In this document: piece by piece, positions 4,131 to 25,576 of the stretch
Layout: every line of letters begins with the position of its first letter
Position numbering within the stretch: position 1 is the first letter of the stretch
Virus record (IMG/VR): IMGVR_UViG_3300030379_000406
Reading direction: 5' to 3' (one strand)
DNA length: 28,449 nt
Source: a virus
Lineage: Duplodnaviria; Heunggongvirae; Uroviricota; Caudoviricetes
Made by a program: the position numbers and the translations under genes
The notes under the pieces: model-generated
The model's input: the letters and a program-made list of their open reading frames with translations, nothing else
The model's database searches: none
Told to the model about the DNA's origin: nothing

Positions 4131-4222
4131 TTGTTTTAACCTCATGACAGATTTAAGGATGAACAAATCCCTGCCATTGCTGGCATATAAGAATGAAACC
4201 GGATATTTATTACGGAACTGTT

Positions 4223-4414
4223 TTAAAGACCTGCCGGGATTTCGATATTATCCTGGTGAATAACTTTATCGACCGGGTAACAGTTACCGGGAATTTTCTG
4301 TTCGGTTGCTGCAGTCATACACTCCTGCATTGTCCTGTGAACACTGACTGCAATATCAACTGGCTCTCCGGAAACAAGAAAAACTGTCAGAACAAGCACA
4401 AATGCTGAATTCAT
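4223..4414 (-). CDS. Small predicted secreted/membrane-anchored protein (hypothetical)
   Basis: 63 aa from Met at 4414 (MNSAFVLVLTVFLVSG... hydrophobic N-terminal signal-like segment); AAGGA Shine-Dalgarno upstream; start overlaps the stop of the upstream minus-strand ORF (ATGA). Confidence 0.3.
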   Translation of the reverse strand: MNSAFVLVLTVFLVSGEPVDIAVSVHRTMQECMTAATEQKIPGNCYPVDKVIHQDNIEIPAGL

Positions 4415-4924: not shown

Positions 4925-5367
4925 GTGCACCGGCAACCATTCTTGATATGTGCTGTGGCAGCCGCATGTTCTGGTTCGATAAGTCTGACGAACGGGCGAT
5001 ATTCAGCGATATCAGAAAAGAAGGATACACATTACGCAATGGGAGACGCTTGATTATCAGCCCTGACATTATCGCAGATTTTCGTGCATTATCATTTGCA
5101 GACGCATCTTTTTCGATGGTTGTATTAGACCCTCCGCATCTTGAGAGTGTTGGTGATAACGCCTGGATGGGAAAGAAATATGGACGGCTGAATAAAGATG
5201 CCTGGCGTGATGATTCGCGACAGAGATTTAAAGAAGCCTTTCGGGTGTTGAGGCCGCACGGCGTTCTGATTTTTTAATGGAATGAAACGCAAATACCGGT
5301 AAGCCAGATTCTGGCACTGACAGACAGAAAACCTGTTATCTGTCAACGAACAGGGAAAAAACGATAA
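4921..5367 (+). pseudogene. Phage-type DNA methyltransferase, disrupted (premature TAA at 5275-5277, then frameshift)
   Basis: N-terminal SAM-binding-like motif ILDMCCGSRMF and catalytic-like motif VLDPPH followed by RVLRPHGVLIF; reading frame stays open in-frame past the TAA (WNETQIPVSQILALTDRKPVICQRTGKKR) before a second stop, and further remnant in another frame to about 5410. Confidence 0.55.
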
Positions 5368-6175: not shown

Positions 6176-6429
6176 ATTAATGGATTAACTATGTCGGTTA
6201 AACGACCAGCCAACTGAAAAAGCGGAAACCTGATTACAGGTTGCCAGATAAGGCAATGAGCTACCTGGCGCGGAACGGACTGATAAGTATGGGGAATGTT
6301 TTACGATGAACCTTTAGACTAAAGAGTTTGTAACGCTATGTAAGTGATTTTTTCTGGTTTAGATATTTATATGTCCGGCCAAATTGAGGTGTGTTTAAAT
6401 GTAATTGCACATTGATTGTAGGAGGAATA

Positions 6430-6609
6430 ATGAAAAACGCATTGCAGTTTTTGTTTGTTGCGTTCTGGTTGTTCGCATCATGTATGCCCATCATCTTCAC
6501 AGCAAGGTATATGGAAAAAGTTGATGTTTTGATATTAATATTTGGATATATAAATGCCCTTTTTTTAGGGGTGTTCATGGCGGTCATGTGCATTGAATAC
6601 TGGCGGTAA
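6430..6609 (+). CDS. Small hydrophobic (two-TM-like) membrane protein, hypothetical
   Basis: 59 aa (MKNALQFLFVAFWLFASCMPIIF...); strong SD GGAGGA 5 nt upstream of ATG 6430. Confidence 0.45.
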   Translation: MKNALQFLFVAFWLFASCMPIIFTARYMEKVDVLILIFGYINALFLGVFMAVMCIEYWR

Positions 6610-6879
6610 ATACAGCGAACTCCATTGGTTTAGTTGGATATTTACTGTGCTGGACAAAAACGGTTTGCGGGGAAATCTTAGTTAAGTAGAATGACTGCGG
6701 GTGCTTGAGGCTATCTGCCTCGGGCATGGACACCAACGGCAGATAGAGAAAAGCCCCAGTTAACATTACGCGTCCTGCAAGACGCTTAACATTAATCTGA
6801 GGCCAATTTCATGCTAGACACATGTAGGTTAGCCTCTTACGTGCCGAAAGGCACGGAGAAGCAGGCTATTGTTAACACC

Positions 6880-8490
6880 AAGCTGTAATGTCCCCTTTGA
6901 ACCATTCTAAAATGTCCCCAGACAATTCTCTGGGGGATTTTTCATGATCAAAGAGACTGTTACGATGAGTCATAAGGAACTCCACCGACTTCAGATTATT
7001 CAGGAACAAGCTGCGGCACGCATTGGCATTTCTATTCGGCAGGTTAAACGTCTGGTGCAACGGTATAGAAATGAAGGGCCTTCTGGTCTGGTTTCCCACC
7101 GACGTGGAAAGCGTCCTAATAATTCCTTTTCTACTGAATTCAGAGCAACAGTAATTTCACTCCTCAAAGGCCGTTACGCTGATTTTGGACCTACGTTTGC
7201 GTGCGAAAAATTGCGCGAGATACACGGTTTATCTTTATCCGTTGAAACTCTCAGAAAGTGGATGATAGAAGAGGGGTTATGGCGTGAACGCCGTCGTAAA
7301 ATTGCCCGTATATATCAACGCCGCATGCGACGACCATCTTACGGTGAACTGATCCAGATTGATGGCTCACCTCATGACTGGTTTGAAAATCGAGGCCCCA
7401 GATGTACACTGATCGTTTTCATTGATGATGCCACCAGTGCGTTGATGGCGTTGCGTTTTGTGCCTGCTGAAACAACCCGGGCTTACATGGAAACCCTCCG
7501 GGGTTACCTTAATGATCATGGCGTACCGCTCGCTCTCTACTCTGATAGACACAGTATATTCAGGGTAAATAACCCAGAGCGGGAAGGTGAGCTGACCCAG
7601 TTCACTCGTGCGATAAAGACACTGGGCATCGAGCCAATCCATGCCAACAGCCCGCAGGCAAAAGGGCGGGTAGAGCGCGCCAATCAGACACTACAGGACA
7701 GGCTGGTCAAAGAAATGCGGCTTCAGAATATCAGTGATATTGAAACAGCAAATGCATGGTTGCCGACCTTTATTGAAGCCTATAACAACCGGTTCGCTAC
7801 GTCGCCTCGTACTACTGATAATGCTCATCTTGATGTGCACCATTCTGAAGAGGAACTGGGTTATATCTTCAGCCTACAGGCGAAGCGCGTTCTGTCTAAA
7901 AATCTCACTTTCCAGTACAAAAGCAGTGCGTTTCAGGTACGCAGTGAGGGCCGGGGATATCGACTTAGGCATTCGGTTGTTACTGTATGCGAGAACTTTG
8001 ACGGTGAAATTAACGTTCTGTATGACGGGAAAGCGCTGGGCTGGGAAAAGTATGTTGATGGCCCGGAGCCTATACCACTGGATGATGAAAAGAGTGTCCA
8101 TGAACGAGTGGATAATGCCCGTATTGATTTACGCTCAAAATACTATGTTAAACCTAAAGCTGACCATCCCTGGCTTACGCGCCGAACGCAAAGTCATCAG
8201 CAAGTTAAGCCCCCGAAGTTACCTAAAAAGAAGCCTGATCCCGATAAAAAAGATTGAAACCAAGATCGATTCGGTTGAGTGCATATCCATTCATAGGGTA
8301 GATTCTTAAGTCGCGTTTCTGGTGTTCATTTTCGGGTGGTTTGTTACTTGTTTTACCGGGGATATGCCAGAAACGCGCTGAGTCAGTCTGGGCGGTGCGC
8401 GTAATGAGGCGTTATGGTAAATAGCCTATGCTAATGTCCGCTAAGAGCAAGAAGCGGAAGTTGGCAGTTTTGTGGACTGTCCCCACAAAA
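6880..8490 (+). mobile_element. Putative insertion-sequence-like element around the rve transposase (boundaries approximate, terminal inverted repeats not identified)
   Basis: Single transposase ORF; short direct repeats TAATGTCC and TGTCCCCA occur on both flanks (6885-6920 and 8433-8486), but I could not define clean terminal inverted repeats. Confidence 0.3.
6944..8257 (+). CDS. DDE-type transposase/integrase with N-terminal HTH and rve (retroviral-integrase-like) catalytic core; IS481/ISNCY-like
   Basis: 437 aa; HTH-like N-terminus (IGISIRQVKRLVQRY); catalytic-core signatures IDGSPHDW, IFIDDATSA, YSDRHSIF, ANSPQAKGRVERANQTLQDRL (D-D-E with the G-x-x-E-R motif); basic Lys/Pro-rich C-terminal tail. 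Confidence 0.7.
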   Translation: MIKETVTMSHKELHRLQIIQEQAAARIGISIRQVKRLVQRYRNEGPSGLVSHRRGKRPNNSFSTEFRATVISLLKGRYADFGPTFACEKLREIHGLSLSVETLRKWMIEEGLWRERRRKIARIYQRRMRRPSYGELIQIDGSPHDWFENRGPRCTLIVFIDDATSALMALRFVPAETTRAYMETLRGYLNDHGVPLALYSDRHSIFRVNNPEREGELTQFTRAIKTLGIEPIHANSPQAKGRVERANQTLQDRLVKEMRLQNISDIETANAWLPTFIEAYNNRFATSPRTTDNAHLDVHHSEEELGYIFSLQAKRVLSKNLTFQYKSSAFQVRSEGRGYRLRHSVVTVCENFDGEINVLYDGKALGWEKYVDGPEPIPLDDEKSVHERVDNARIDLRSKYYVKPKADHPWLTRRTQSHQQVKPPKLPKKKPDPDKKD

Positions 8491-8693
8491 GTGACTACAG
8501 AAATAGTTGCAATTCATAATTGATCATGGGTTGTCAGTTAAACTCGTGGCGATTTAAATAGACTAATTGGGAGTGCGTCCATTACTTATATCTTGTAATG
8601 TTAACTATCAGAAATGATACAAAGATAATATGTCTTTAAAGAAAAGGCTGATGGCGAAAAGTGGCCCGATGAGGGCCACAATACGGCTGTCAC

Positions 8694-9026
8694 TTAGACG
8701 TAAATATCAATGGTGCCAGCGGTATTTGTATCGTCTTTTTTCTCTTCTTTTTTATCAGGCTGAACTGTCGCGTCTTCATTCTTTTTCTCTGCCTGCTGCC
8801 TTAACAACTGCTCCAGTTGAGCCCAGAGGCTTTCAATTTGCTTCTGTACCAATGCAGCCATTTCTTTTTTCTGCTGTGTCGTCATCCCCTCTTCCGATGA
8901 GATTTTCCCAAGCTTTTCAGTCAGCACCTGAATTTGTCTTGTGATTTTGGCTATTTCTGATGTTCCTTCCGGGGCGGAGTTGTTTGAAATAACGGTTGAG
9001 GTATTTCCCTGAATTGTGACAGACAT
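8694..9026 (-). CDS. flxA: FlxA (FliA-regulated protein of Qin prophage)
   Basis: 110-aa ORF (MSVTIQGNTSTVISNNSAPEG...KKDDTNTAGTIDIYV) recognised from memory as E. coli FlxA; consensus sigma-28 promoter immediately upstream. Confidence 0.85.
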   Translation of the reverse strand: MSVTIQGNTSTVISNNSAPEGTSEIAKITRQIQVLTEKLGKISSEEGMTTQQKKEMAALVQKQIESLWAQLEQLLRQQAEKKNEDATVQPDKKEEKKDDTNTAGTIDIYV

Positions 9027-9049
9027 AGATTTCTCCTTTTAAAAAAGCA

Positions 9050-9076
9050 CTATCGGCATGCACAAAAAAATCTTTA
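9050..9076 (-). promoter_or_regulatory. Sigma-28 (FliA) promoter for flxA
   Basis: On the minus strand: TAAAGATT - 11 nt - GCCGATAG (consensus TAAAGTTT-N11-GCCGATAA), about 25 nt upstream of the flxA ATG. Confidence 0.7.
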
Positions 9077-9228
9077 ATCGTATTTCTTGTGTCATTAATT
9101 GTTTGATGTTCAGATTGTTTTCCTCGCGGGCTGGCGCGCCTCAGAAAGTAAAGCTTGTTGACAGGGGTAAACGTTCGGCAATAATTTTCTGCCGCATGCG
9201 GGTGTTGCATAAAACGTGTTACGTTCCT

Positions 9229-9534
9229 TTATCGACAGGTCAGGTCACCGCTCACCCGCCGACGAGAAAGCAATACTGACATGCTAAAGCAAAAAATAGA
9301 TGAATAAGTTGAGTTGTGCATATGTAGCCTGACCGTCACAAAGTATATGGTGTCTGTACCAGTAAGATGATGGCCGGACTCTTTAAAAACGAGCTGACCT
9401 GCACAATACAGGATGGACTTAGCAATGGCTGCTCCTGGCACAAAGCGGACAGTGATCACCGTTCTTACGACTACTTTCTGACTTCCTTCGTGACTTGCCC
9501 TAAGCATGTTGTAGTGCGATACTTGTAATGACAT
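9229..9534 (-). CDS. ydfV: Hypothetical protein at the ydfV position
   Basis: 101-aa ORF between flxA and relB, divergent from relB; symbol assigned by length and synteny with K-12 Qin, not by sequence recall; coding status uncertain. Confidence 0.35.
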   Translation of the reverse strand: MSLQVSHYNMLRASHEGSQKVVVRTVITVRFVPGAAIAKSILYCAGQLVFKESGHHLTGTDTIYFVTVRLHMHNSTYSSIFCFSMSVLLSRRRVSGDLTCR

Positions 9535-9547
9535 TTGTAATTACAAG
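9495..9547 (+). promoter_or_regulatory. relBE promoter/operator (palindromic RelB-binding repeats)
   Basis: TTGCCC - 17 nt - GATACT followed by the palindrome CTTGTAATGACATTTGTAATTACAAG (9522-9547) just upstream of the relB SD. Confidence 0.65.
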
Positions 9548-9558
9548 AGGTGTAAGAC

Positions 9559-9798
9559 ATGGGTAGCATTAACCTGCGTATTGACGATGAACTTAAAGCG
9601 CGTTCTTACGCCGCGCTTGAAAAAATGGGTGTAACTCCTTCTGAAGCGCTTCGTCTCATGCTCGAGTATATCGCTGACAATGAACGCTTGCCGTTCAAAC
9701 AGACACTCCTGAGTGATGAAGATGCTGAACTTGTGGAGATAGTGAAAGAACGGCTTCGTAATCCTAAGCCAGTACGTGTGACGCTGGATGAACTCTGA
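9559..9798 (+). CDS. relB: RelB antitoxin
   Basis: 79 aa (MGSINLRIDDELKARSYAALEKMGVTPSEALRLMLEYIADNERLPF...), recognised as E. coli RelB; stop overlaps the relE start. Confidence 0.95.
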   Translation: MGSINLRIDDELKARSYAALEKMGVTPSEALRLMLEYIADNERLPFKQTLLSDEDAELVEIVKERLRNPKPVRVTLDEL

Positions 9799-10085
9799 TG
9801 GCGTATTTTCTGGATTTTGACGAGCGGGCACTAAAGGAATGGCGAAAGCTGGGCTCGACGGTACGTGAACAGTTGAAAAAGAAGCTGGTTGAAGTACTTG
9901 AGTCACCCCGGATTGAAGCAAACAAGCTCCGTGGTATGCCTGATTGTTACAAGATTAAGCTCCGGTCTTCAGGCTATCGCCTTGTATACCAGGTTATAGA
10001 CGAGAAAGTTGTCGTTTTCGTGATTTCTGTTGGGAAAAGAGAACGCTCGGAAGTATATAGCGAGGCGGTCAAACGCATTCTCTGA
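9798..10085 (+). CDS. relE: RelE mRNA interferase toxin
   Basis: 95 aa (MAYFLDFDERALKEWRKLGSTVREQLKKKLVEVLESPRIEANKLRGMPDCYKIKLRSSGYRLVYQV...), recognised as E. coli RelE. Confidence 0.95.
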   Translation: MAYFLDFDERALKEWRKLGSTVREQLKKKLVEVLESPRIEANKLRGMPDCYKIKLRSSGYRLVYQVIDEKVVVFVISVGKRERSEVYSEAVKRIL

Positions 10086-10156
10086 ACCAAAGCATGACAT
10101 CTCTGTTTCGCACCGAAGGTGACACTTCTGCTTTGCGTTGACAGGAGAAGCAGGCT

Positions 10157-10312
10157 ATGAAGCAGCAAAAGGCGATGTTAATCGCCCTGATCGTCATCTG
10201 TTTAACCGTCATAGTGACGGCACTGGTAACGAGGAAAGACCTCTGCGAGGTACGAATCCGAACCGGCCAGACGGAGGTCGCTGTCTTCACAGCTTACGAA
10301 CCTGAGGAGTAA
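10157..10312 (+). CDS. hokD: HokD/RelF Hok-family membrane toxin
   Basis: 51-aa ORF (MKQQKAMLIALIVICLTVIVTALVTRKDLCEVRIRTGQTEVAVFTAYEPEE), below the ORF-track length cutoff; found by manual translation. Confidence 0.9.
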   Translation: MKQQKAMLIALIVICLTVIVTALVTRKDLCEVRIRTGQTEVAVFTAYEPEE

Positions 10313-10380
10313 GAGACCCGGCGGGGGAGAAATCCCTCGCCACCTCTGATGTGGCAGGCATCCTCAACGCACCCGCACTT

Positions 10381-10407
10381 AACCCGCTTCGGCGGGTTTT
10401 TGTTTTT
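10381..10407 (+). terminator. Rho-independent terminator after hokD
   Basis: Hairpin ACCCGC-TTCG-GCGGGT followed by TTTTTGTTTTT. Confidence 0.7.
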
Positions 10408-10528
10408 ATTTTCAACGCGTTTGAAGTTCTGGACGGTGCCGGAATAGAATCAAAAATACTTAAGTAGCGCGCAGGGATAAGAGGGATGGTCCCTTAAAGG
10501 GGAGAGCTAATTATCCGGAAGGATTCTG

Positions 10529-10780
10529 ATGATGAACATCGAAGAACTGCGTAAAATTTTTTGTGAAGATGGCCTCTATGCGGTGTGCGTTGAAAATGGA
10601 AATCTTGTTAGTCATTACCGCATTATGTGTTTGCGAAAGAATGGGGCTGCGTTAATTAATTTTGTGGATGCTCGGGTCACGGACGGATTTATCTTGCGCG
10701 AAGGTGAGTTTGTCACTTCATTACAGGCATTGAAAGAGATCGGAATAAAAGCTGGCTTTTCTGCTTTTTCAGGAGAATAA
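10529..10780 (+). CDS. Hypothetical protein (83 aa)
   Basis: Clean ORF with GGAAGGA SD upstream of ATG; no recognisable motif. Confidence 0.45.
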   Translation: MMNIEELRKIFCEDGLYAVCVENGNLVSHYRIMCLRKNGAALINFVDARVTDGFILREGEFVTSLQALKEIGIKAGFSAFSGE

Positions 10781-10846
10781 ACTCATCTACAATCTTGCGC
10801 GGGGCTGAACTCCCGCTGAGTAACACCGTGCCACCGGAGAAAACCG

Positions 10847-11125
10847 ATGGCACGCAACGCAAAATATTACAATTCTGATAATTCGCCCGTTCTTGCCTGC
10901 ACGCACGGGCGGTATTCTCACGCATTCAAGTCTGAATGGTTCCAGCACCCTCCATGCACTGCAGAACAGGCCGAATGGCTGATTCATTCTTACCGCAGGC
11001 GCGGGTTCGAGGTTAAGAAAGCTCTCAGTCTCGACTATCGGCACTGGATAATCTCTGTCAGGCTGCCTTATTCCGAACGCCCACCACGTGCGTCCCGCAC
11101 TTTCCAGCAACGGATCTGGAGGTAA
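10847..11125 (+). CDS. rem: Rem-like prophage protein
   Basis: 92-aa ORF between hokD and the DUF968 gene, matching the rem position in Qin; symbol by synteny and partial recall. Confidence 0.5.
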   Translation: MARNAKYYNSDNSPVLACTHGRYSHAFKSEWFQHPPCTAEQAEWLIHSYRRRGFEVKKALSLDYRHWIISVRLPYSERPPRASRTFQQRIWR

Positions 11126-13576: not shown

Positions 13577-13876
13577 AAAAATTCCTTAATACTGATAACT
13601 TGGCGCACTATACACACGTTCCTGAAGAAAGCTATAGTTTTTTGATGGGGTTGAAGATGGCTGGATGTCTAAAATAAACATTGCTTCATATGTTCAACTA
13701 TGCGTTAATGATTGCGTCGGTTTGAAGAACAGACGATATACGAAGTAGTTTACTAAAGCAGTTCTCATTTCAGGTGTTATTCACTTATTCCTTCTTTGAG
13801 TCTCTCCAATTAAGTACGAAGTCGTTTCTGTTATGCAAACCATTTATGCCGAAAGGCTCAAGTTAAGGAATGTAGA

Positions 13877-14092
13877 ATGTCAAATAAAATGACTGGTTTA
13901 GTAAAATGGTTTAACGCTGATAAAGGTTTCGGCTTTATTTCTCCTGTTGATGGTAGTAAAGATGTGTTTGTGCATTTTTCTGCGATTCAGAATGATAATT
14001 ATCGAACCTTATTTGAAGGTCAAAAGGTTACCTTCTCTATAGAGAGTGGTGCTAAAGGTCCTGCAGCAGCAAATGTCATCATTACTGATTAA
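13877..14092 (+). CDS. cspB: Cold-shock protein CspB
   Basis: 71 aa ([71 protein letters not shown]); long 5' UTR typical of csp genes. Confidence 0.95.
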
Positions 14093-14374
14093 AATTCATC
14101 GCTCGTCTGTATACGATAACGAAGAAGGCTGATGCCTGAGTAGAGATACGGACAGAGTAGTGAATATTGGATCTCTTTAATAAAAAGTAAGGAGGTCCAA
14201 TACATGAAACAATGGCTAGCATATTTGGCAAAATCTTAATCAGGAAAAGTATGCTAACCATTGTGGTGAAGTGCAGGTTTGCTGCATGAATAGTTTTACA
14301 GCAGAAGCTAACTGCTGGCATGGCAAAACAAAGTGCGTAAGTGGATGACTCCCACAAAAAGCACCACAATCTCA

Positions 14375-16401: not shown

Positions 16402-16762
16402 GGTAATATTAAATCGGAACATTTACATCGCGGAATGTAAAATTTAAATAAAAAGGACTCTTCCATGAGCCAAAATTCCTGAAATCTTAAGGGTAAGATA
16501 AAAGGTCTTAATCAGAATGACACGCTTTATTAATAAATAAAGCTATTCTTTCATTGCTGTGTTTTTCTTTACAAAAGTAATCCTTGCTATGGGTGGTTAA
16601 TCATGCGTTAATGGTGTTCTGGTTTGTTACAAATTTATCTGAAGCAGTCATTGTTATAATTTTATTATTTGTACCTCTTGAGATTTCCTTGTTGGTTTTT
16701 CTCTCTGATATTTTTTTCGGACCATTCTGCCCAAGGGCTAATTTCTTCAAAAGGTAATAATT

Positions 16763-16975
16763 ATGTCTAACAAAATGACTGGTTTAGTGAAATGGTTTAA
16801 CCCTGAAAAAGGTTTTGGTTTCATCACGCCGAAAGATGGCAGCAAAGATGTGTTTGTCCATTTCTCAGCAATTCAGAGCAACGATTTCAAAACATTAACT
16901 GAGAATCAGGAAGTTGAATTTGGTATTGAGAACGGACCTAAAGGTCCTGCCGCTGTTCATGTAGTGGCGCTTTGA
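16763..16975 (+). CDS. cspI: Cold-shock protein CspI
   Basis: 70 aa ([70 protein letters not shown]). Confidence 0.95.
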
Positions 16976-17645
16976 GGTAGACAATATTACAAACCATATT
17001 CACTTTAGATGCCCGTGTTGTCATGGTTCCCAGTATAGAACATCATCTTTTGATGTTTCTGACATGAATCCTTTCGGGGCAAAATGTATCTTTTGTAAAT
17101 CAATGATGATTACATTTGATAATATTTCACAATACTTAAATGCCAGCCGTCTGTCGTTGGATTTAAAAAAGTGAAAATGAAGGCTCCTTCGGGAGCTTTT
17201 TTGCTTGGTGTCTATTCGATGGATACTCACATACTACGGTAACATCATGAAAAAAATCATAGTTTTTTTTAACTCTGAACCAGCAGTGGTAGTGCCAGCG
17301 ATGACTGGAGTTAACACCATCATGCGTGAATATCCAAATGGCGAAAAAACACACCTTACTGTAATGGCCGCAGGGTTTCCATCTCTGACCGGAGATCATA
17401 AAGTCATTTATGTAGCCGCGGATCGACATGTTACTTCAGAAGAAATTCTGGAAGCAGCAATAAGGCTCTTGAGTTGATTTGATGCTATTGCATTGATAAT
17501 TCAGGAAAATTCTCTTTGTCTGTTTGTGTAAAATTTAGACTATCGTATGTTGATTATTGCGATGTTTCATCTTATCTTTTACACGTTTGCACCATATAAT
17601 CGACTTACTGTGTAACTGGAAAGTCATAACAGACTAAAAGAGGAA

Positions 17646-25001: not shown

Positions 25002-25576
25002 TGGCATTCAGAATGAGTGAACAACCACGGACCATAAAAATTTATAATCTGCTGGCCGGAACTAATGAATTTATTGGTGAAGGTGACGCATATATTCCGC
25101 CTCATACAGGTCTGCCAGCAAACAGTACCGATATTGCACCACCAGATATTCCTGCTGGCTTTGTGGCTGTTTTCAACAGTGATAAGGCATCGTGGCATCT
25201 CGATGAAGACCATCGGGGTAAAACGGTTTATGACGTAGCGTCAGGGGACGCGTTATTTATTTCTGAACTCGGTCCGTTACCGGAAAATGTTACCTGGTTA
25301 TCGCCGGAAGGGGAGTTTCAGAAGTGGAACGGCACAGCCTGGGTGAAAGATGCAGAAGCAGAAAAACTGTTCCGGATCCGAGAGGCGGAAGAAACAAAAA
25401 ACAGCCTGATGCAGGTAGCCAGTGAGCATATTGCGCCACTTCAGGATGCTGTAGATCTGGAAATCGCAACGGAGGAAGAAACCTCATTGCTGGAAGCCTG
25501 GAAAAAGTATCGGGTGTTGCTGAACCGTGTTGATACGTCAACTGCACAGGATATTGAATGGCCAGCACTGCCGTAG
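25001..25576 (+). CDS. tfa: Tail fiber assembly protein Tfa
   Basis: 191 aa ([51 protein letters not shown]...); start overlaps the stf stop (TAATG). Confidence 0.9.

What the first reader, a model, noticed from the sequence alone, without database searches (positions are those of the whole stretch)
6690..8490. rve-domain transposase with structured flanks and no clear inverted repeats
The 437-aa DDE protein looks like an IS481/ISNCY-type transposase, but I could not identify terminal inverted repeats or target duplications. Instead, the upstream 250 bp is GC-rich with several hairpins (GGCTATCTGCC...GGCAGATAG at 6710-6747; GTGCC-GAAA-GGCAC at 6841-6854), and downstream there is an 11-bp perfect inverted repeat CGCGTTTCTGG...CCAGAAACGCG (8311-8378). 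The short motifs TAATGTCC and TGTCCCCA recur as direct repeats on both flanks. This could be a domesticated element or carry a structured RNA.
Basis: seen in the sequence. Interest (0 to 1): 0.5.

Follow-up and report, generated by a model that had tools for sequence, protein, structure and literature searches.

The report
hok-targeting transposon carrying relBE
The transposase that seemed to lack terminal repeats is the left arm of a 3.3-kb IS1202-family transposon that carries the relBE toxin-antitoxin genes and sits exactly at the start of the prophage hokD toxin gene, a site this transposon lineage has hit repeatedly in other hok genes.

Summary
The ORF, the hairpins and the 11-bp inverted repeat are all present at the stated coordinates. 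The missing terminal repeats follow from the region chosen: the right end lies 1.7 kb beyond it.

The element spans 6870-10143. It has 5'-TGT...ACA-3' ends, inverted repeats matching at 19 of 26 positions, and a perfect 15-bp target duplication, GGAGAAGCAGGCTAT, at 6855-6869 and 10144-10158. It encodes an IS1202-family transposase (an ISEsa1 relative), a conserved structured 3' block, flxA, ydfV and relBE.

The upstream hairpins are not part of the element. They belong to the 5' leader of a hok/sok locus (Rfam sok, 104 bits). The insertion cut this leader off from its toxin gene hokD at 10157. Related prophages keep the uninterrupted leader-hokD site.

The same two ends bracket 3.3-12.8 kb of varying cargo in enterobacterial plasmids. 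In most distinct contexts the element sits about 15 nt after the last hok leader hairpin, each time with its own duplication.

The window copy lacks 9 conserved residues in the transposase N-terminus. E. coli K-12 keeps only the right part.

I found no paper describing hok targeting or these ends for ISEsa1, which the literature lists as having no duplication and no target.

The parts
6699..6869 (+).
   Evidence: Rfam RF01794 'sok' matches 6699-6870 at 104.1 bits (gathering score 59) over the full model 1-157, ending at the Shine-Dalgarno and start codon. Fold z = -4.7. In related prophages the same leader, 92-98% identical, runs straight into hokD.
6855..6869 (.). Left copy of the 15-bp target-site duplication GGAGAAGCAGGCTAT (hok Shine-Dalgarno through 'AT' of the start codon).
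   Evidence: Identical 15-mer at 10144-10158. The empty sites L084 and L085 carry one copy only.
6870..6925 (+). Left inverted repeat (IRL). It begins 5'-TGT and carries two subterminal repeats, TAATGTCCCC (6886-6895) and AAATGTCCCC (6910-6919).
   Evidence: Homology among all copies starts exactly here, whatever lies to the left. IRL matches the reverse complement of IRR at 19 of 26 positions. The same two-repeat layout is seen at both ends of the 1449-bp Hahella relative.
6915..6936 (+). Hairpin TCCCCAG...CTGGGGG directly upstream of the transposase ATG. Inferred to occlude the ribosome-binding site in read-through transcripts.
   Evidence: Listed among terminator-like sites. The function is inferred and not tested.
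6944..8257 (+). tnpA, an IS1202-family (ISfinder ISNCY) DDE transposase of 437 aa. Catalytic residues D140, D201 and E244 are present, with DD161-162 and Q251. It has a 27-bp in-frame deletion between 6999 and 7000 that removes 9 residues (QESINRHIT).
   Evidence: NCBIfam NF033594 456 bits. Pfam HTH and rve_3 matches. Alignment with 9 full-length relatives. Deletion seen against E. coli H1, pMY504-1 and plasmid copies. RefSeq labels relatives 'IS1202-like element ISEsa1 family transposase'.
8258..8462 (+). Conserved non-coding 3' block of the left module. It holds the long hairpin 8312-8377, an invariant TTATGGTAAAT motif, and the palindrome-like AATGTCCGCT...AGCGGAAGTT at 8433-8462 (AGCGGACATT in other copies).
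   Evidence: Present in all 12 enterobacterial variants aligned, 70-100% identical, with the stem kept. Fold z = -4.0. No Rfam match even at E<=10. Cargo begins right after it in every variant.
8463..9431 (.). Variable cargo of this variant: flxA (8694-9026, minus strand) and most of ydfV (9229-9534, minus strand; its first ~34 codons lie in the right module).
   Evidence: ORFs, names from RefSeq. Other variants carry DUF2158 and hypothetical genes, a cytochrome b and CDF transporter plus ISEsa2, or ncrABCY plus chrBA at this position. Module boundaries.
9432..10085 (+). Conserved right module: relB upstream region, relB (9559-9798) and relE (9798-10085).
   Evidence: 90-99% identical in every variant that has the right end. 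Sequence is 99.9% identical to K-12 over 8073-11000. RefSeq gives the same protein accessions as K-12 for relB and relE.
10086..10143 (+). Right inverted repeat (IRR), ending ...GGTGACACTTCTGCTTTGCGTTGACA-3'.
   Evidence: The same end abuts differing duplicated target sequences in L076, L086, L087, L089, L090, L170, L172 and L252.
10144..10158 (.). Right copy of the 15-bp target-site duplication. It supplies the Shine-Dalgarno and 'AT' of the hokD start codon.
10157..10312 (+). hokD (relF) coding sequence, the toxin gene that belonged to the leader at 6699-6869. It now lies 71 nt downstream of relE.
   Evidence: ORF, annotation. It is contiguous with the leader in L084 and L085.

Best explanation
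The finding is the left arm of an IS1202-family cut-and-paste transposon. It fits the ISTde1-type subgroup with 15-17-bp duplications and is an ISEsa1 relative. The element spans 6870-10143.

Structure, left to right:
- IRL, starting 5'-TGT, with two subterminal repeats.
- tnpA.
- A conserved structured 3' block.
- Variable cargo, here flxA and ydfV.
- relBE.
- IRR, ending ACA-3'.

What happened. The element inserted into the translation-initiation region of the hokD gene of a Qin-type lambdoid prophage and duplicated 15 bp (GGAGAAGCAGGCTAT). That split the hok/sok locus. The hokD coding sequence, with a regenerated ribosome-binding site, ended up 71 nt behind relE.

Target choice. The lineage is site-selective. 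In independent events the left end joins 15-16 nt downstream of the last hairpin of a hok leader (...GCC-loop-GGCAA|GGAG...), nearly always in the same orientation. The determinant lies upstream of the cut.

Shown here: homology, both ends, the duplication, the empty site, independent insertions with their own duplications, and variable cargo.

Inferred:
- How the transposase recognises the hok leader DNA.
- That hok then comes under relBE transcription without Sok control.
- That the window copy is crippled. It lacks 9 conserved N-terminal residues, is single-copy, and sits at a fixed position.
For: 1. Family. NCBIfam ISNCY_2 scores 456 bits. The DDE triad, the extra DD and Q at E+7 are present. 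These are the signatures given by Siguier et al., bioRxiv 10.1101/2022.12.17.520857.

2. Ends and duplication. The left junction reads ...GGCAC GGAGAAGCAGGCTAT|TGTTAACACC and the right junction reads ...GCGTTGACA|GGAGAAGCAGGCTAT G. The inverted repeats match at 19 of 26 positions.

3. Empty site. E. coli MN06021 (L084) and Ecol_545 (L085) have the same gene order: DUF977 ... leader-hokD-rem-DUF968-Q. Their leader is fused directly to hokD and carries one copy of the 15-mer.

4. The same ends occur elsewhere, each with its own duplication:
- Salmonella IncI plasmid L086, TGGAGGGGCTATGAT, a pndA-like hok.
- Enterobacter IncF plasmid L087, GGAGAAGAAGGCCAT.
- Citrobacter plasmid L089, 16 bp, different cargo.
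- Enterobacter plasmid L090, 12,843 bp, carrying ncrABCY and chrBA.
- pMY504-1 (L252), 6,093 bp, carrying ISEsa2 and a CDF transporter.
- L170 and L172.
- One non-hok site, L076.

5. Scan for the right end. An exact-match scan for the right end found 160 public contigs, 76 viral and 84 metagenomic. Pooled with the loci fetched earlier they give 39 distinct right flanks:
- About 17 are a Shine-Dalgarno, an ATG and a Hok ORF, covering at least 9 different Hok proteins.
- Four are tandem IRR-duplication-IRL junctions.
- Four are variants of a GGAGnTGTATGGGTCC flank, where an IS481-family element sits after the hok Shine-Dalgarno.
- About 12 are other sequences.

6. Diverged hok leaders abut an identical IRL at the same distance from the hairpin. 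At least 7 different leaders are seen, each ending in the hairpin and GGAG or GGAT at the same distance; those scanned score 80-104 bits on the Rfam sok model.

7. In L170 the duplicated 16-mer is GGAGA plus the end of another IS. Sequence downstream of the cut is therefore not required.

8. Relatives outside the enterobacteria are ordinary insertion sequences. The Hahella relative is 1449 bp, has TGT...ACA ends and 15-17-bp duplications in 10 copies.

9. K-12 keeps 8073 onward, including IRR and the right duplication, and has lost the leader, IRL and the 5' part of tnpA. Its gene ydfW is the transposase C-terminus.
Against: - No transposition assay exists, and the window copy may be inactive.
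- Many ISEsa1-type copies in my sample showed no right end within the 2.5 kb of flank available. The architecture was confirmed only where I could extend the sequence.
- About a third of distinct right flanks are not hok. Their duplications could not be checked, so selectivity is strong but not absolute.
- One copy (L019) sits at the same site in the opposite orientation.
- Recurrent hok junctions could partly reflect recombination between copies. L167 and L248 are such recombinants.
- I could not consult ISfinder, TnCentral or Ramisetty & Santhosh 2016. Prior description cannot be excluded.
Confidence: 0.88

Rival explanations
1. Short-IS reading. The mobile unit is only the ~1.6-kb ISEsa1 as catalogued (1609 bp, inverted repeats 15/22, no target duplication). 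On this reading flxA, ydfV and relBE are unrelated prophage neighbours.
For: Harmer & Hall 2023 (PMC10132070) list ISEsa1 as 1609 bp with no duplication. Many plasmid matches stop at window position 8462. The 90%-identity variant matches over 1610 bp.
Against: - There is no duplication and no sequence resembling IRL in inverted orientation near 8450-8480 in any of 28 enterobacterial copies.
- The catalogued length coincides with the junction of an inserted IS110-family ISEsa2.
- In pMY504-1 that same 90% variant continues to relBE and IRR with a 15-bp duplication.
- The whole 3.3-kb unit is 99.4-99.8% identical in plasmids that have different flanks and different duplications.
- I could not reproduce a 15/22 repeat. 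An ungapped comparison of IRL with the end at 8452 gives 6 of 22 (read by eye).
Confidence: 0.05
2. Two-event origin. An autonomous short IS inserted at the hok site. The relBE-IRR arm is the remnant of a second tandem copy, or of a separately integrated relBE cassette. The present unit is then a fused composite, not an element that captured cargo internally.
For: - Tandem IRR-duplication-IRL junctions exist in L088, L020, L234 and L242.
- The left module ends in AATGTCCGCT...AGCGGACATT, which contains the subterminal repeat in both orientations and could be a vestigial inner right end.
- An AGCGGACA motif also opens the right module.
- Ramisetty & Santhosh 2016, as cited in PMC6379469, treat relBE as an independently transferred cassette integrated into hokD.
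Against: - No IRL or duplication remnant lies between the modules.
- Every variant with a right end has the same relBE-IRR module.
- The duplication brackets the whole unit in 8 distinct contexts.
- This rival concerns history only. It does not change what the unit is now or how it moves.
Confidence: 0.2
3. Domesticated transposase or a cis-acting structured RNA belonging to the element. On this reading the gene is retained for a host function and the hairpins are its regulatory RNA.
For: The copy is single and fixed in about 790 E. coli genomes. Both flanks are significantly structured. The 3' block is conserved and has no known RNA family.
Against: - Intact ends and a duplication show a transposon insertion.
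- The upstream structure is a hok leader that also exists without the element.
- The gene is decaying: a 27-bp deletion here and a 1.2-kb deletion in K-12.
- RefSeq calls it a pseudogene in many genomes.
Confidence: 0.04
4. Selection instead of targeting. The element inserts more or less at random, and copies inside hok loci are simply the ones that survive, because losing a toxin gene is harmless or beneficial.
For: About 12 of 39 distinct right flanks are not hok. More distant variants (78-81% protein identity; L017, L018, L022, L036, L038) sit in non-hok DNA.
Against: Selection would tolerate insertion anywhere in a ~400-bp hok locus. Instead the junction falls at the same nucleotide, plus or minus one, relative to the leader hairpin in every distinct hok context seen (about 17 right flanks and at least 7 leaders), and almost always in one orientation. 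It also falls there in L170, where hok was already disrupted by another IS.
Confidence: 0.08

Closest known systems
ISEsa1 (ISfinder, IS1202 group of ISNCY; originally from Cronobacter/Enterobacter sakazakii)
   Same: The transposase arm is the same lineage. RefSeq names near-identical copies 'IS1202-like element ISEsa1 family transposase'. The window arm is about 90% identical in DNA to the 1610-bp variant that matches the catalogued length.
   Different: ISEsa1 is catalogued as 1609 bp with no target duplication and no known target (PMC10132070). Here the unit is 3.3-12.8 kb, has a defined IRR next to relE, makes a 15-16-bp duplication and shows a strong preference for hok leaders. The window copy also lacks 27 bp in tnpA.
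ISTde1 subgroup of the IS1202 family (Siguier et al. 2022 preprint)
   Same: TGT termini, 15-17-bp direct repeats, an N-terminal HTH plus DDE with an internal DD and Q at E+7, and occasional passenger genes. Relatives in Hahella, Chromatiales, Elusimicrobia and Acidobacteria fit this description.
   Different: That subgroup was reported to show no site targeting and to occur in only one plasmid. This lineage is mostly plasmid- or prophage-borne, targets hok leaders and always carries relBE at its right end. I did not place it in their phylogeny.
ISAjo2/ISAba32 subgroup of the IS1202 family (dif/pdif-targeting)
   Same: Same family. Insertion is oriented, at a fixed short distance to one side of a recognised site, with repeated and tandem hits on one site.
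   Different: Those elements make 5-6-bp duplications 5 bp from a XerC arm. Here the duplication is 15-16 bp and starts right after a hok leader hairpin. I did not look for a Xer site.
Tn7 (TnsB transposase; attTn7 downstream of glmS)
   Same: The transposase is TnsB-like according to Harmer & Hall. Also shared: TGT...ACA ends, several transposase-binding repeats per end, cargo-carrying, and insertion beside a recognised sequence instead of within it.
   Different: There is a single transposase gene, with no TnsA, TnsC, TnsD or TnsE. The duplication is much longer. The target here is a mobile-element toxin locus, not a conserved housekeeping gene.
relBEF operon and hokD (relF) of E. coli K-12 Qin prophage
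   Same: Same DNA, 99.9% identical from 8073 onward. relBE and hokD are co-transcribed (Gotfredsen & Gerdes 1998, as cited in PMC5120126). relBE was already proposed to have integrated into hokD from plasmids (PMC6379469).
   Different: K-12 has lost the leader, IRL and most of tnpA, so the vehicle could not be seen there. The window keeps the complete transposon and the detached leader, which identifies both the vehicle and the exact insertion site.

Membership tests
IS1202 family (ISNCY/IS1202 group) | Transposase homologous to family members, with an N-terminal HTH and a DDE RNase-H-like core | tested here: met
   NCBIfam NF033594 456 bits against a cut-off of 250. Pfam HTH_32/29/28 and rve_3. 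Alignment with 9 full-length relatives.
IS1202 family (ISNCY/IS1202 group) | Two extra conserved D between the first and second catalytic D, and Q seven residues after the catalytic E (Siguier et al.) | tested here: met
   D140, DD161-162, D201, E244 and Q251. Criterion taken.
IS1202 family (ISNCY/IS1202 group) | 5'-TGT ... ACA-3' termini with imperfect terminal inverted repeats and a second internal binding repeat at each end | tested here: met
   IRL is TGTTAACACC...; the reverse complement of IRR is TGTCAACGCA...; 19 of 26 positions match. Subterminal ATGTCCCC / GTGTCACC / ATGTCATG repeats are present.
ISTde1 subgroup of the IS1202 family | 15-17-bp target-site duplication | tested here: met
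   15 bp in the window and 15-16 bp in seven other contexts. 15-17 bp in the Hahella relative.
ISTde1 subgroup of the IS1202 family | Subgroup-specific 5-10-aa indel between the second D and E, and placement in the subgroup's clade | not tested
ISEsa1 (as an ISfinder isoform) | High identity to the ISfinder reference over its full length, including both ends | not testable with these tools
The indirect evidence is the RefSeq label and ~90% DNA identity to a 1610-bp variant. At that identity the window arm may count as a separate IS.
ISAjo2/ISAba32 subgroup | 5-6-bp duplication, inserted 5 bp from the XerC arm of a dif-like site | tested here: not met
   The duplication is 15 bp and the flank is a hok leader. 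Presence of a Xer site was not searched for.
[quoted passage not shown] | Leader RNA with the family's sequence and structure | tested here: met
   RF01794 104.1 bits (gathering score 59), full model.
[quoted passage not shown] | Leader contiguous with a hok ORF | tested here: not met
   The two are separated by the 3,274-bp insertion, with hokD at 10157. They are contiguous in L084 and L085. The window locus is therefore a disrupted member.
[quoted passage not shown] | Functional Sok antisense promoter and RNA, and a mok frame | not tested
   The 6600-10200 consensus scan lists no minus-strand promoter; no targeted search made.
relBE type II toxin-antitoxin (cargo) | Identity to the characterised K-12 RelB and RelE | tested here: met
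   DNA is 99.9% identical to K-12 over 8073-11000. RefSeq gives the same accessions, WP_000534858.1 and WP_000323025.1, in an identical E. coli locus and in K-12.

The most novel reading that the evidence does not exclude
A lineage of single-gene, TnsB-like IS1202-family transposons recognises the DNA encoding the last stem-loop of hok mRNA leaders and inserts at a fixed distance from it. The insertion uncouples the Hok toxin gene from its Sok antisense control and places it behind the transposon's own relBE module. One addiction system is in effect replaced by another, while the element ferries cargo such as nickel and chromate resistance genes between plasmids and prophages. The classic relBEF operon of E. 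coli K-12 would be a decayed product of such an event. The ISfinder 'TSD-less, target-less' ISEsa1 group would be an artefact of truncated delimitation.
Probability: 0.55. Interest if true: 0.8.

Novelty: new variant of a known kind. Interest (0 to 1): 0.65.

Why it matters
- It settles an open point in two recent IS1202-family surveys. Harmer & Hall left ISEsa1 and ISCARN112 in a group with no duplication and found no target; this work covers ISEsa1 only, which has normal ends and a 15-16-bp duplication once the right end is found. Siguier et al. found no targeting outside the dif-targeting subgroup; this lineage has a specific target.
- It adds a second kind of target to the family. The first was dif/pdif. 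This one is the leader of a type I toxin-antitoxin locus, a target that is itself carried by plasmids and prophages.
- It identifies the vehicle and the exact insertion site behind a textbook oddity. K-12 hokD (relF) lacks all hok regulatory elements and is co-transcribed with relBE.
- It shows that relBE, nickel and chromate resistance genes and other cargo travel on this element between IncF, IncI and other large enterobacterial plasmids and lambdoid prophages.
- It has a practical consequence for annotation. The intact ORF is split in RefSeq into a 'pseudogene' plus ydfW, and the transposon is not recognised as a unit.

Tried and rejected
1. The perfect 12-bp inverted repeat AGTTAACATTAC at 6758 and 8595 (pair I16) as IS ends. 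Rejected: 6758 lies in a loop of the hok leader, and no other copy shares these limits.

2. Boundaries 6799-8462 suggested by the plasmid BLAST. The left limit is an artefact. BLAST ran on into the partly homologous hok leaders. High identity starts at 6870.

3. A right end near 8448-8480. I compared the right flanks of 17 copies and ran local alignments of reverse-complemented IRL against 1.1 kb downstream of tnpA. I also searched for inverted subterminal repeats. Nothing was found in any enterobacterial copy, whereas all non-enterobacterial relatives gave clear inverted repeats.

4. The idea that the 3' block (8300-8462) is a degenerate second hok leader. A few shared words (GGTGGTTTGTT, ATAGCCT) suggested it, but the Rfam sok model finds nothing there even at E<=10. 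Dropped.

5. Enrichment of the short motif. Not significant in the window.

6. A structured-RNA identity for the 3' block. The consensus fold keeps the long stem, but most pairs are invariant and only 4 of 38 show double changes, split between two clades. Inconclusive. A DNA-level role remains possible, such as a transposase site, an outward promoter at TTATGGTAAAT, or a cargo junction.

7. Literature searches for ISEsa1, IS1202 with hok, hokD with relBE and transposon, and hok with target site duplication. None linked this IS to hok.

8. Ramisetty & Santhosh 2016 could not be retrieved.
Full report
**Observation**

The 437-aa ORF lies at 6944-8257. The two upstream hairpins lie at 6709-6746 and 6841-6854. 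The perfect 11-bp inverted repeat lies at 8312-8322 and 8367-8377.

Both flanks are more structured than shuffled sequence. Region 6699-6870 gives z = -4.7. Region 8300-8465 gives z = -4.0.

Inside 6690-8490 there is no pair of terminal inverted repeats and no target duplication. The longest candidate was a 12-bp repeat at 6758 and 8595. It turned out to be chance.

**What the protein is**

NCBIfam places the protein in 'ISNCY family transposase' (NF033594, 456 bits). The IS481 model scores only 126 bits, below its cut-off. Pfam sees N-terminal HTH domains and a weak rve_3 match.

RefSeq labels near-identical genes 'IS1202-like element ISEsa1 family transposase'.

An alignment with relatives from Hahella, Chromatiales, Rhabdochlamydiaceae, Castellaniella, Acidobacteria and Uhrbacteria shows the catalytic D140, D201 and E244. 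It also shows the DD161-162 pair and Q251. Siguier et al. give these as family signatures.

The window allele lacks 9 residues (QESINRHIT) that every relative has just before the first HTH. The cause is a 27-bp in-frame deletion between 6999 and 7000.

**What the upstream hairpins are**

Rfam's sok family (RF01794) matches 6699-6870 on the + strand at 104 bits, against a gathering score of 59. The match covers the whole model.

The model runs in the sense of the hok mRNA and ends at its Shine-Dalgarno and AUG. This stretch is therefore a hok mRNA 5' leader.

The second hairpin, GTGCC-GAAA-GGCAC, lies in the leader's last stem-loop region, next to the Shine-Dalgarno.

The leader stops abruptly. 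Where the start codon should be, the sequence reads ...GGAGAAGCAGGCTAT|TGTTAACACC.

**Finding the left end**

A plasmid BLAST first suggested element limits of 6799-8462. That left limit is an artefact. Copies in other replicons are also preceded by hok leaders, and BLAST ran on into them.

Direct inspection shows that high identity begins at TGTTAACACC (6870), whatever lies to the left. At least seven clearly different hok leaders abut the same IRL. Those covered by the Rfam scans score 80-104 bits on the sok model. In each, the last 15-16 nt before the junction begin with GGAG or GGAT, directly after the hairpin ...GGCAA.

**Finding the right end**

A 62%-identical relative present in at least 10 copies in Hahella sp. 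SMD15-11 served as a template. It is 1449 bp long, has 5'-TGT...ACA-3' ends, two ATGTCCCC-type repeats at each end, and 15-17-bp duplications.

All non-enterobacterial relatives examined, except the Massilia copy L054, show such repeats. No enterobacterial copy has an inverted copy of the repeats within about 1 kb of the transposase stop codon. This explains why Harmer & Hall list ISEsa1 as 1609 bp with no duplication and no target (PMC10132070).

**The empty site**

The empty-site comparison settled the question. The window's leader, 92-98% identical, is widespread in E. coli prophages, where it is followed directly by hokD.

In E. coli MN06021 (L084) and Ecol_545 (L085) the gene order is DUF977 ... 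leader-hokD-rem-DUF968-antiterminator. The window has the same order around its leader and around its hokD at 10157.

In L084 the sequence reads ...GGCAAGGAGAAGCAGGCTATGAAGCAG....

In the window the sequence just upstream of hokD reads ...GGTGACACTTCTGCTTTGCGTTGACA|GGAGAAGCAGGCTAT G AAGCAG.

GGAGAAGCAGGCTAT therefore occurs once in the empty site and twice in the window, at 6855-6869 and 10144-10158. The inserted DNA ends in ...TTGACA-3'. The reverse complement of that end matches IRL at 19 of 26 positions and carries two subterminal repeats.

The element is 6870-10143, 3,274 bp. It contains:
- tnpA.
- A conserved non-coding block, 8258-8462.
- flxA and ydfV.
- relB and relE.

**Does the whole unit move?**

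It does. The complete 3.3-kb unit is 99.4-99.8% identical in Enterobacter, Salmonella, E. coli and Citrobacter plasmids. Each copy is flanked by its own duplication inside a different hok locus:

| Locus | Replicon | Length | Duplication |
|---|---|---|---|
| L086 | Salmonella IncI plasmid | 3,301 bp | TGGAGGGGCTATGAT, before a pndA-like hok |
| L087 | Enterobacter IncF plasmid | 3,301 bp | GGAGAAGAAGGCCAT |
| L089 | Citrobacter IncFIB plasmid, different cargo | 4,155 bp | 16 bp |
| L090 | Enterobacter IncFII/IncR plasmid, carries ncrABCY and chrBA | 12,843 bp | GGAGAAGAAGGCCAT |
| L252 | pMY504-1; the 90% 'canonical ISEsa1' arm plus ISEsa2, a cytochrome b and a CDF transporter | 6,093 bp | GGAGAAGAAGGCCAT |

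Metagenome and viral contigs add further examples:
- L172, in another leader.
- L170, with the 16-mer GGAGATGTATGGGTCC.

One non-hok site with an imperfect 15-mer was also found, L076.

Two modules are constant across variants:
- The left module is 6870 to about 8462.
- The right module is about 9432 to 10143 and holds the relB upstream region, relBE and IRR.

Everything between them varies.

**Target selectivity**

An exact-match scan for the right end found 160 public contigs, 76 viral and 84 metagenomic. Pooled with the loci fetched earlier they give 39 distinct right flanks:
- About 17 are a Shine-Dalgarno, an ATG and a Hok ORF. They cover at least nine different Hok proteins, of HokD, R1/F-type and PndA-type.
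- Four are tandem IRR-duplication-IRL junctions.
- Four are variants of GGAGnTGTATGGGTCC. This is a hok Shine-Dalgarno followed by the end of an IS481-family element.
- About 12 are other sequences.

In L170 the duplicated 16-mer spans GGAGA plus that foreign IS end, and the left flank is a normal hok leader. The recognised determinant therefore lies upstream of the cut, in the hairpin region, and not in the start codon or the hok ORF.

In L012 the ATG sits inside the duplication, yet the junction still falls 15 nt after GGCAA.

One copy, L019, sits at the same site in the opposite orientation.

Selection alone would not place independent insertions at one nucleotide within a ~400-bp locus. 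I conclude that the lineage is site-selective, as the dif-targeting ISAjo2/ISAba32 subgroup of the same family is. The recognition mechanism is inferred, not shown.

**Consequences of the insertion (partly inferred)**

The hok leader is left without a toxin gene. That leader holds the Sok target and the mok start. The transposase gene lies 74 nt downstream of it, preceded by a hairpin at 6915-6936 that could mask its ribosome-binding site in read-through transcripts (inference).

The hokD ORF keeps a Shine-Dalgarno and a start codon, because the duplication regenerates them. It now lies 71 nt behind relE.

In K-12, relB, relE and hokD (relF) are co-transcribed (Gotfredsen & Gerdes 1998, as cited in PMC5120126).

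K-12 itself retains window positions 8073 onward at 99.9% identity, including IRR and the right duplication. It has lost the leader, IRL and 1.1 kb of tnpA. Its gene ydfW is the last 49 codons of the transposase.

This accounts for the known absence of hok regulatory elements at hokD. It also identifies the vehicle behind the earlier suggestion that relBE integrated into hokD from plasmids (PMC6379469).

**Status of the window copy**

The ends are identical to those of the plasmid copies and the DDE residues are intact. The transposase lacks 9 conserved N-terminal residues.

The element is single-copy and at one fixed position in the E. coli genomes that have it. There are 1,166 such genomes, with a median of one place per genome. 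In other strains it is in various stages of decay.

It is most likely a fossil, or at best a copy that could be mobilised by a transposase supplied from elsewhere.

**The downstream hairpin**

The stretch 8312-8377 belongs to a 3' block that is conserved at 70-100% in all enterobacterial variants. This holds even where cargo separates the block from tnpA.

The stem is preserved but mostly invariant, and only 4 of 38 predicted pairs show double changes. No Rfam family matches.

The block ends in AATGTCCGCT...AGCGGACATT, mutated to AGCGGAAGTT in the window. This contains the subterminal repeat in both orientations, and cargo begins right after it. Its role is open. It may be a vestigial inner end, a transposase site, an outward promoter or a cargo junction.

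**Comparison with what is known, and novelty**

The element meets every tested criterion of the IS1202 family. Its duplication length fits the ISTde1 subgroup.

It differs from published descriptions in four ways:
- ISEsa1 is listed with no duplication and no target.
- The ISTde1 subgroup was reported not to target specific sites and to be almost absent from plasmids.
- No paper in the searchable library links IS1202 or ISEsa1 to hok.
- No family paper I read mentions a toxin-antitoxin passenger; the Siguier preprint never uses the word 'toxin'.

I rate it a new variant of a known kind. I could not consult ISfinder, TnCentral or the 2016 Ramisetty & Santhosh paper.

Noticed in passing
L217:6503-8300; also L168, L170, L236 (right flanks of the transposon): A different element with a TGT end, annotated 'IS481 family transposase' in Klebsiella plasmids, sits directly after the hok Shine-Dalgarno (GGAGn|TGTATGGGTCCACC...). 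The hok translation-initiation region may therefore be a hotspot for more than one family of TGT-ended DDE elements.
   Followed up: partly
L002:4540, and L006, L007, L009-L012 near 4036 (equivalent to window 8452): An IS110-family ISEsa2 is inserted at the same position...GCTAAGAGCGAGA|TATAGTCATTCG, inside the conserved 3' block. It is seen in copies from E. coli, Enterobacter, Pseudocitrobacter, Huaxiibacter, Superficieibacter and Kluyvera. This is either a site-specific IS110 target or one composite structure that has spread. It probably explains the 1609-bp ISfinder length of ISEsa1.
   Followed up: partly
L089:2967-3109 and 4221-4289; L019:3864-4006 and 5118-5172: In two variants the 3' block is split. 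About 29 bp (equivalent to window 8394-8422) is present on both sides of a ~1.1-kb insert, as if another element with a long duplication had entered there.
   Followed up: no
window 6965-7987 and 8108-8257 (RefSeq features mapped from the identical locus L001): RefSeq annotates the uninterrupted 437-aa ORF as a truncated 'ISNCY family transposase' pseudogene plus a separate gene ydfW, which is the transposase C-terminus. This looks like an annotation artefact carried over from K-12. ydfV (9229-9534, minus strand) spans the junction between cargo and right module, so it may be a chimeric ORF.
   Followed up: partly
L088:2187-2253; L020:2385-2440; L234; L242: Tandem junctions occur: IRR, then 10-15 nt of hok-type duplication, then IRL. 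These indicate repeated insertion into the regenerated target. L167 and L248 have mismatched left and right flanks, which indicates recombination between copies at different hok loci.
   Followed up: partly
L024:2293-2366, L043:2246-2333, L016:2337-2450: In distant relatives the left end lies within about 100 nt of a tRNA gene (Hahella, Castellaniella). In a Kluyvera copy it overlaps a weak match to the isrO sRNA family. It is unclear whether this is more than coincidence.
   Followed up: no
window 25344-25542; 13716-14108; 16618-17002: Other Rfam matches in the window are IS009 (227 bits) and two cspA-type thermoregulator leaders (159 and 114 bits). The two leaders lie in the part of the prophage where RefSeq places cspB and cspF in an identical locus.
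   Followed up: no
window 6430-6609 (+): A small ORF of 60 aa from the ATG at 6430 (72 aa from a GTG at 6391) encodes a hydrophobic protein and lies directly upstream of the hok leader. It has no RefSeq annotation in the identical locus L001.
   Followed up: no
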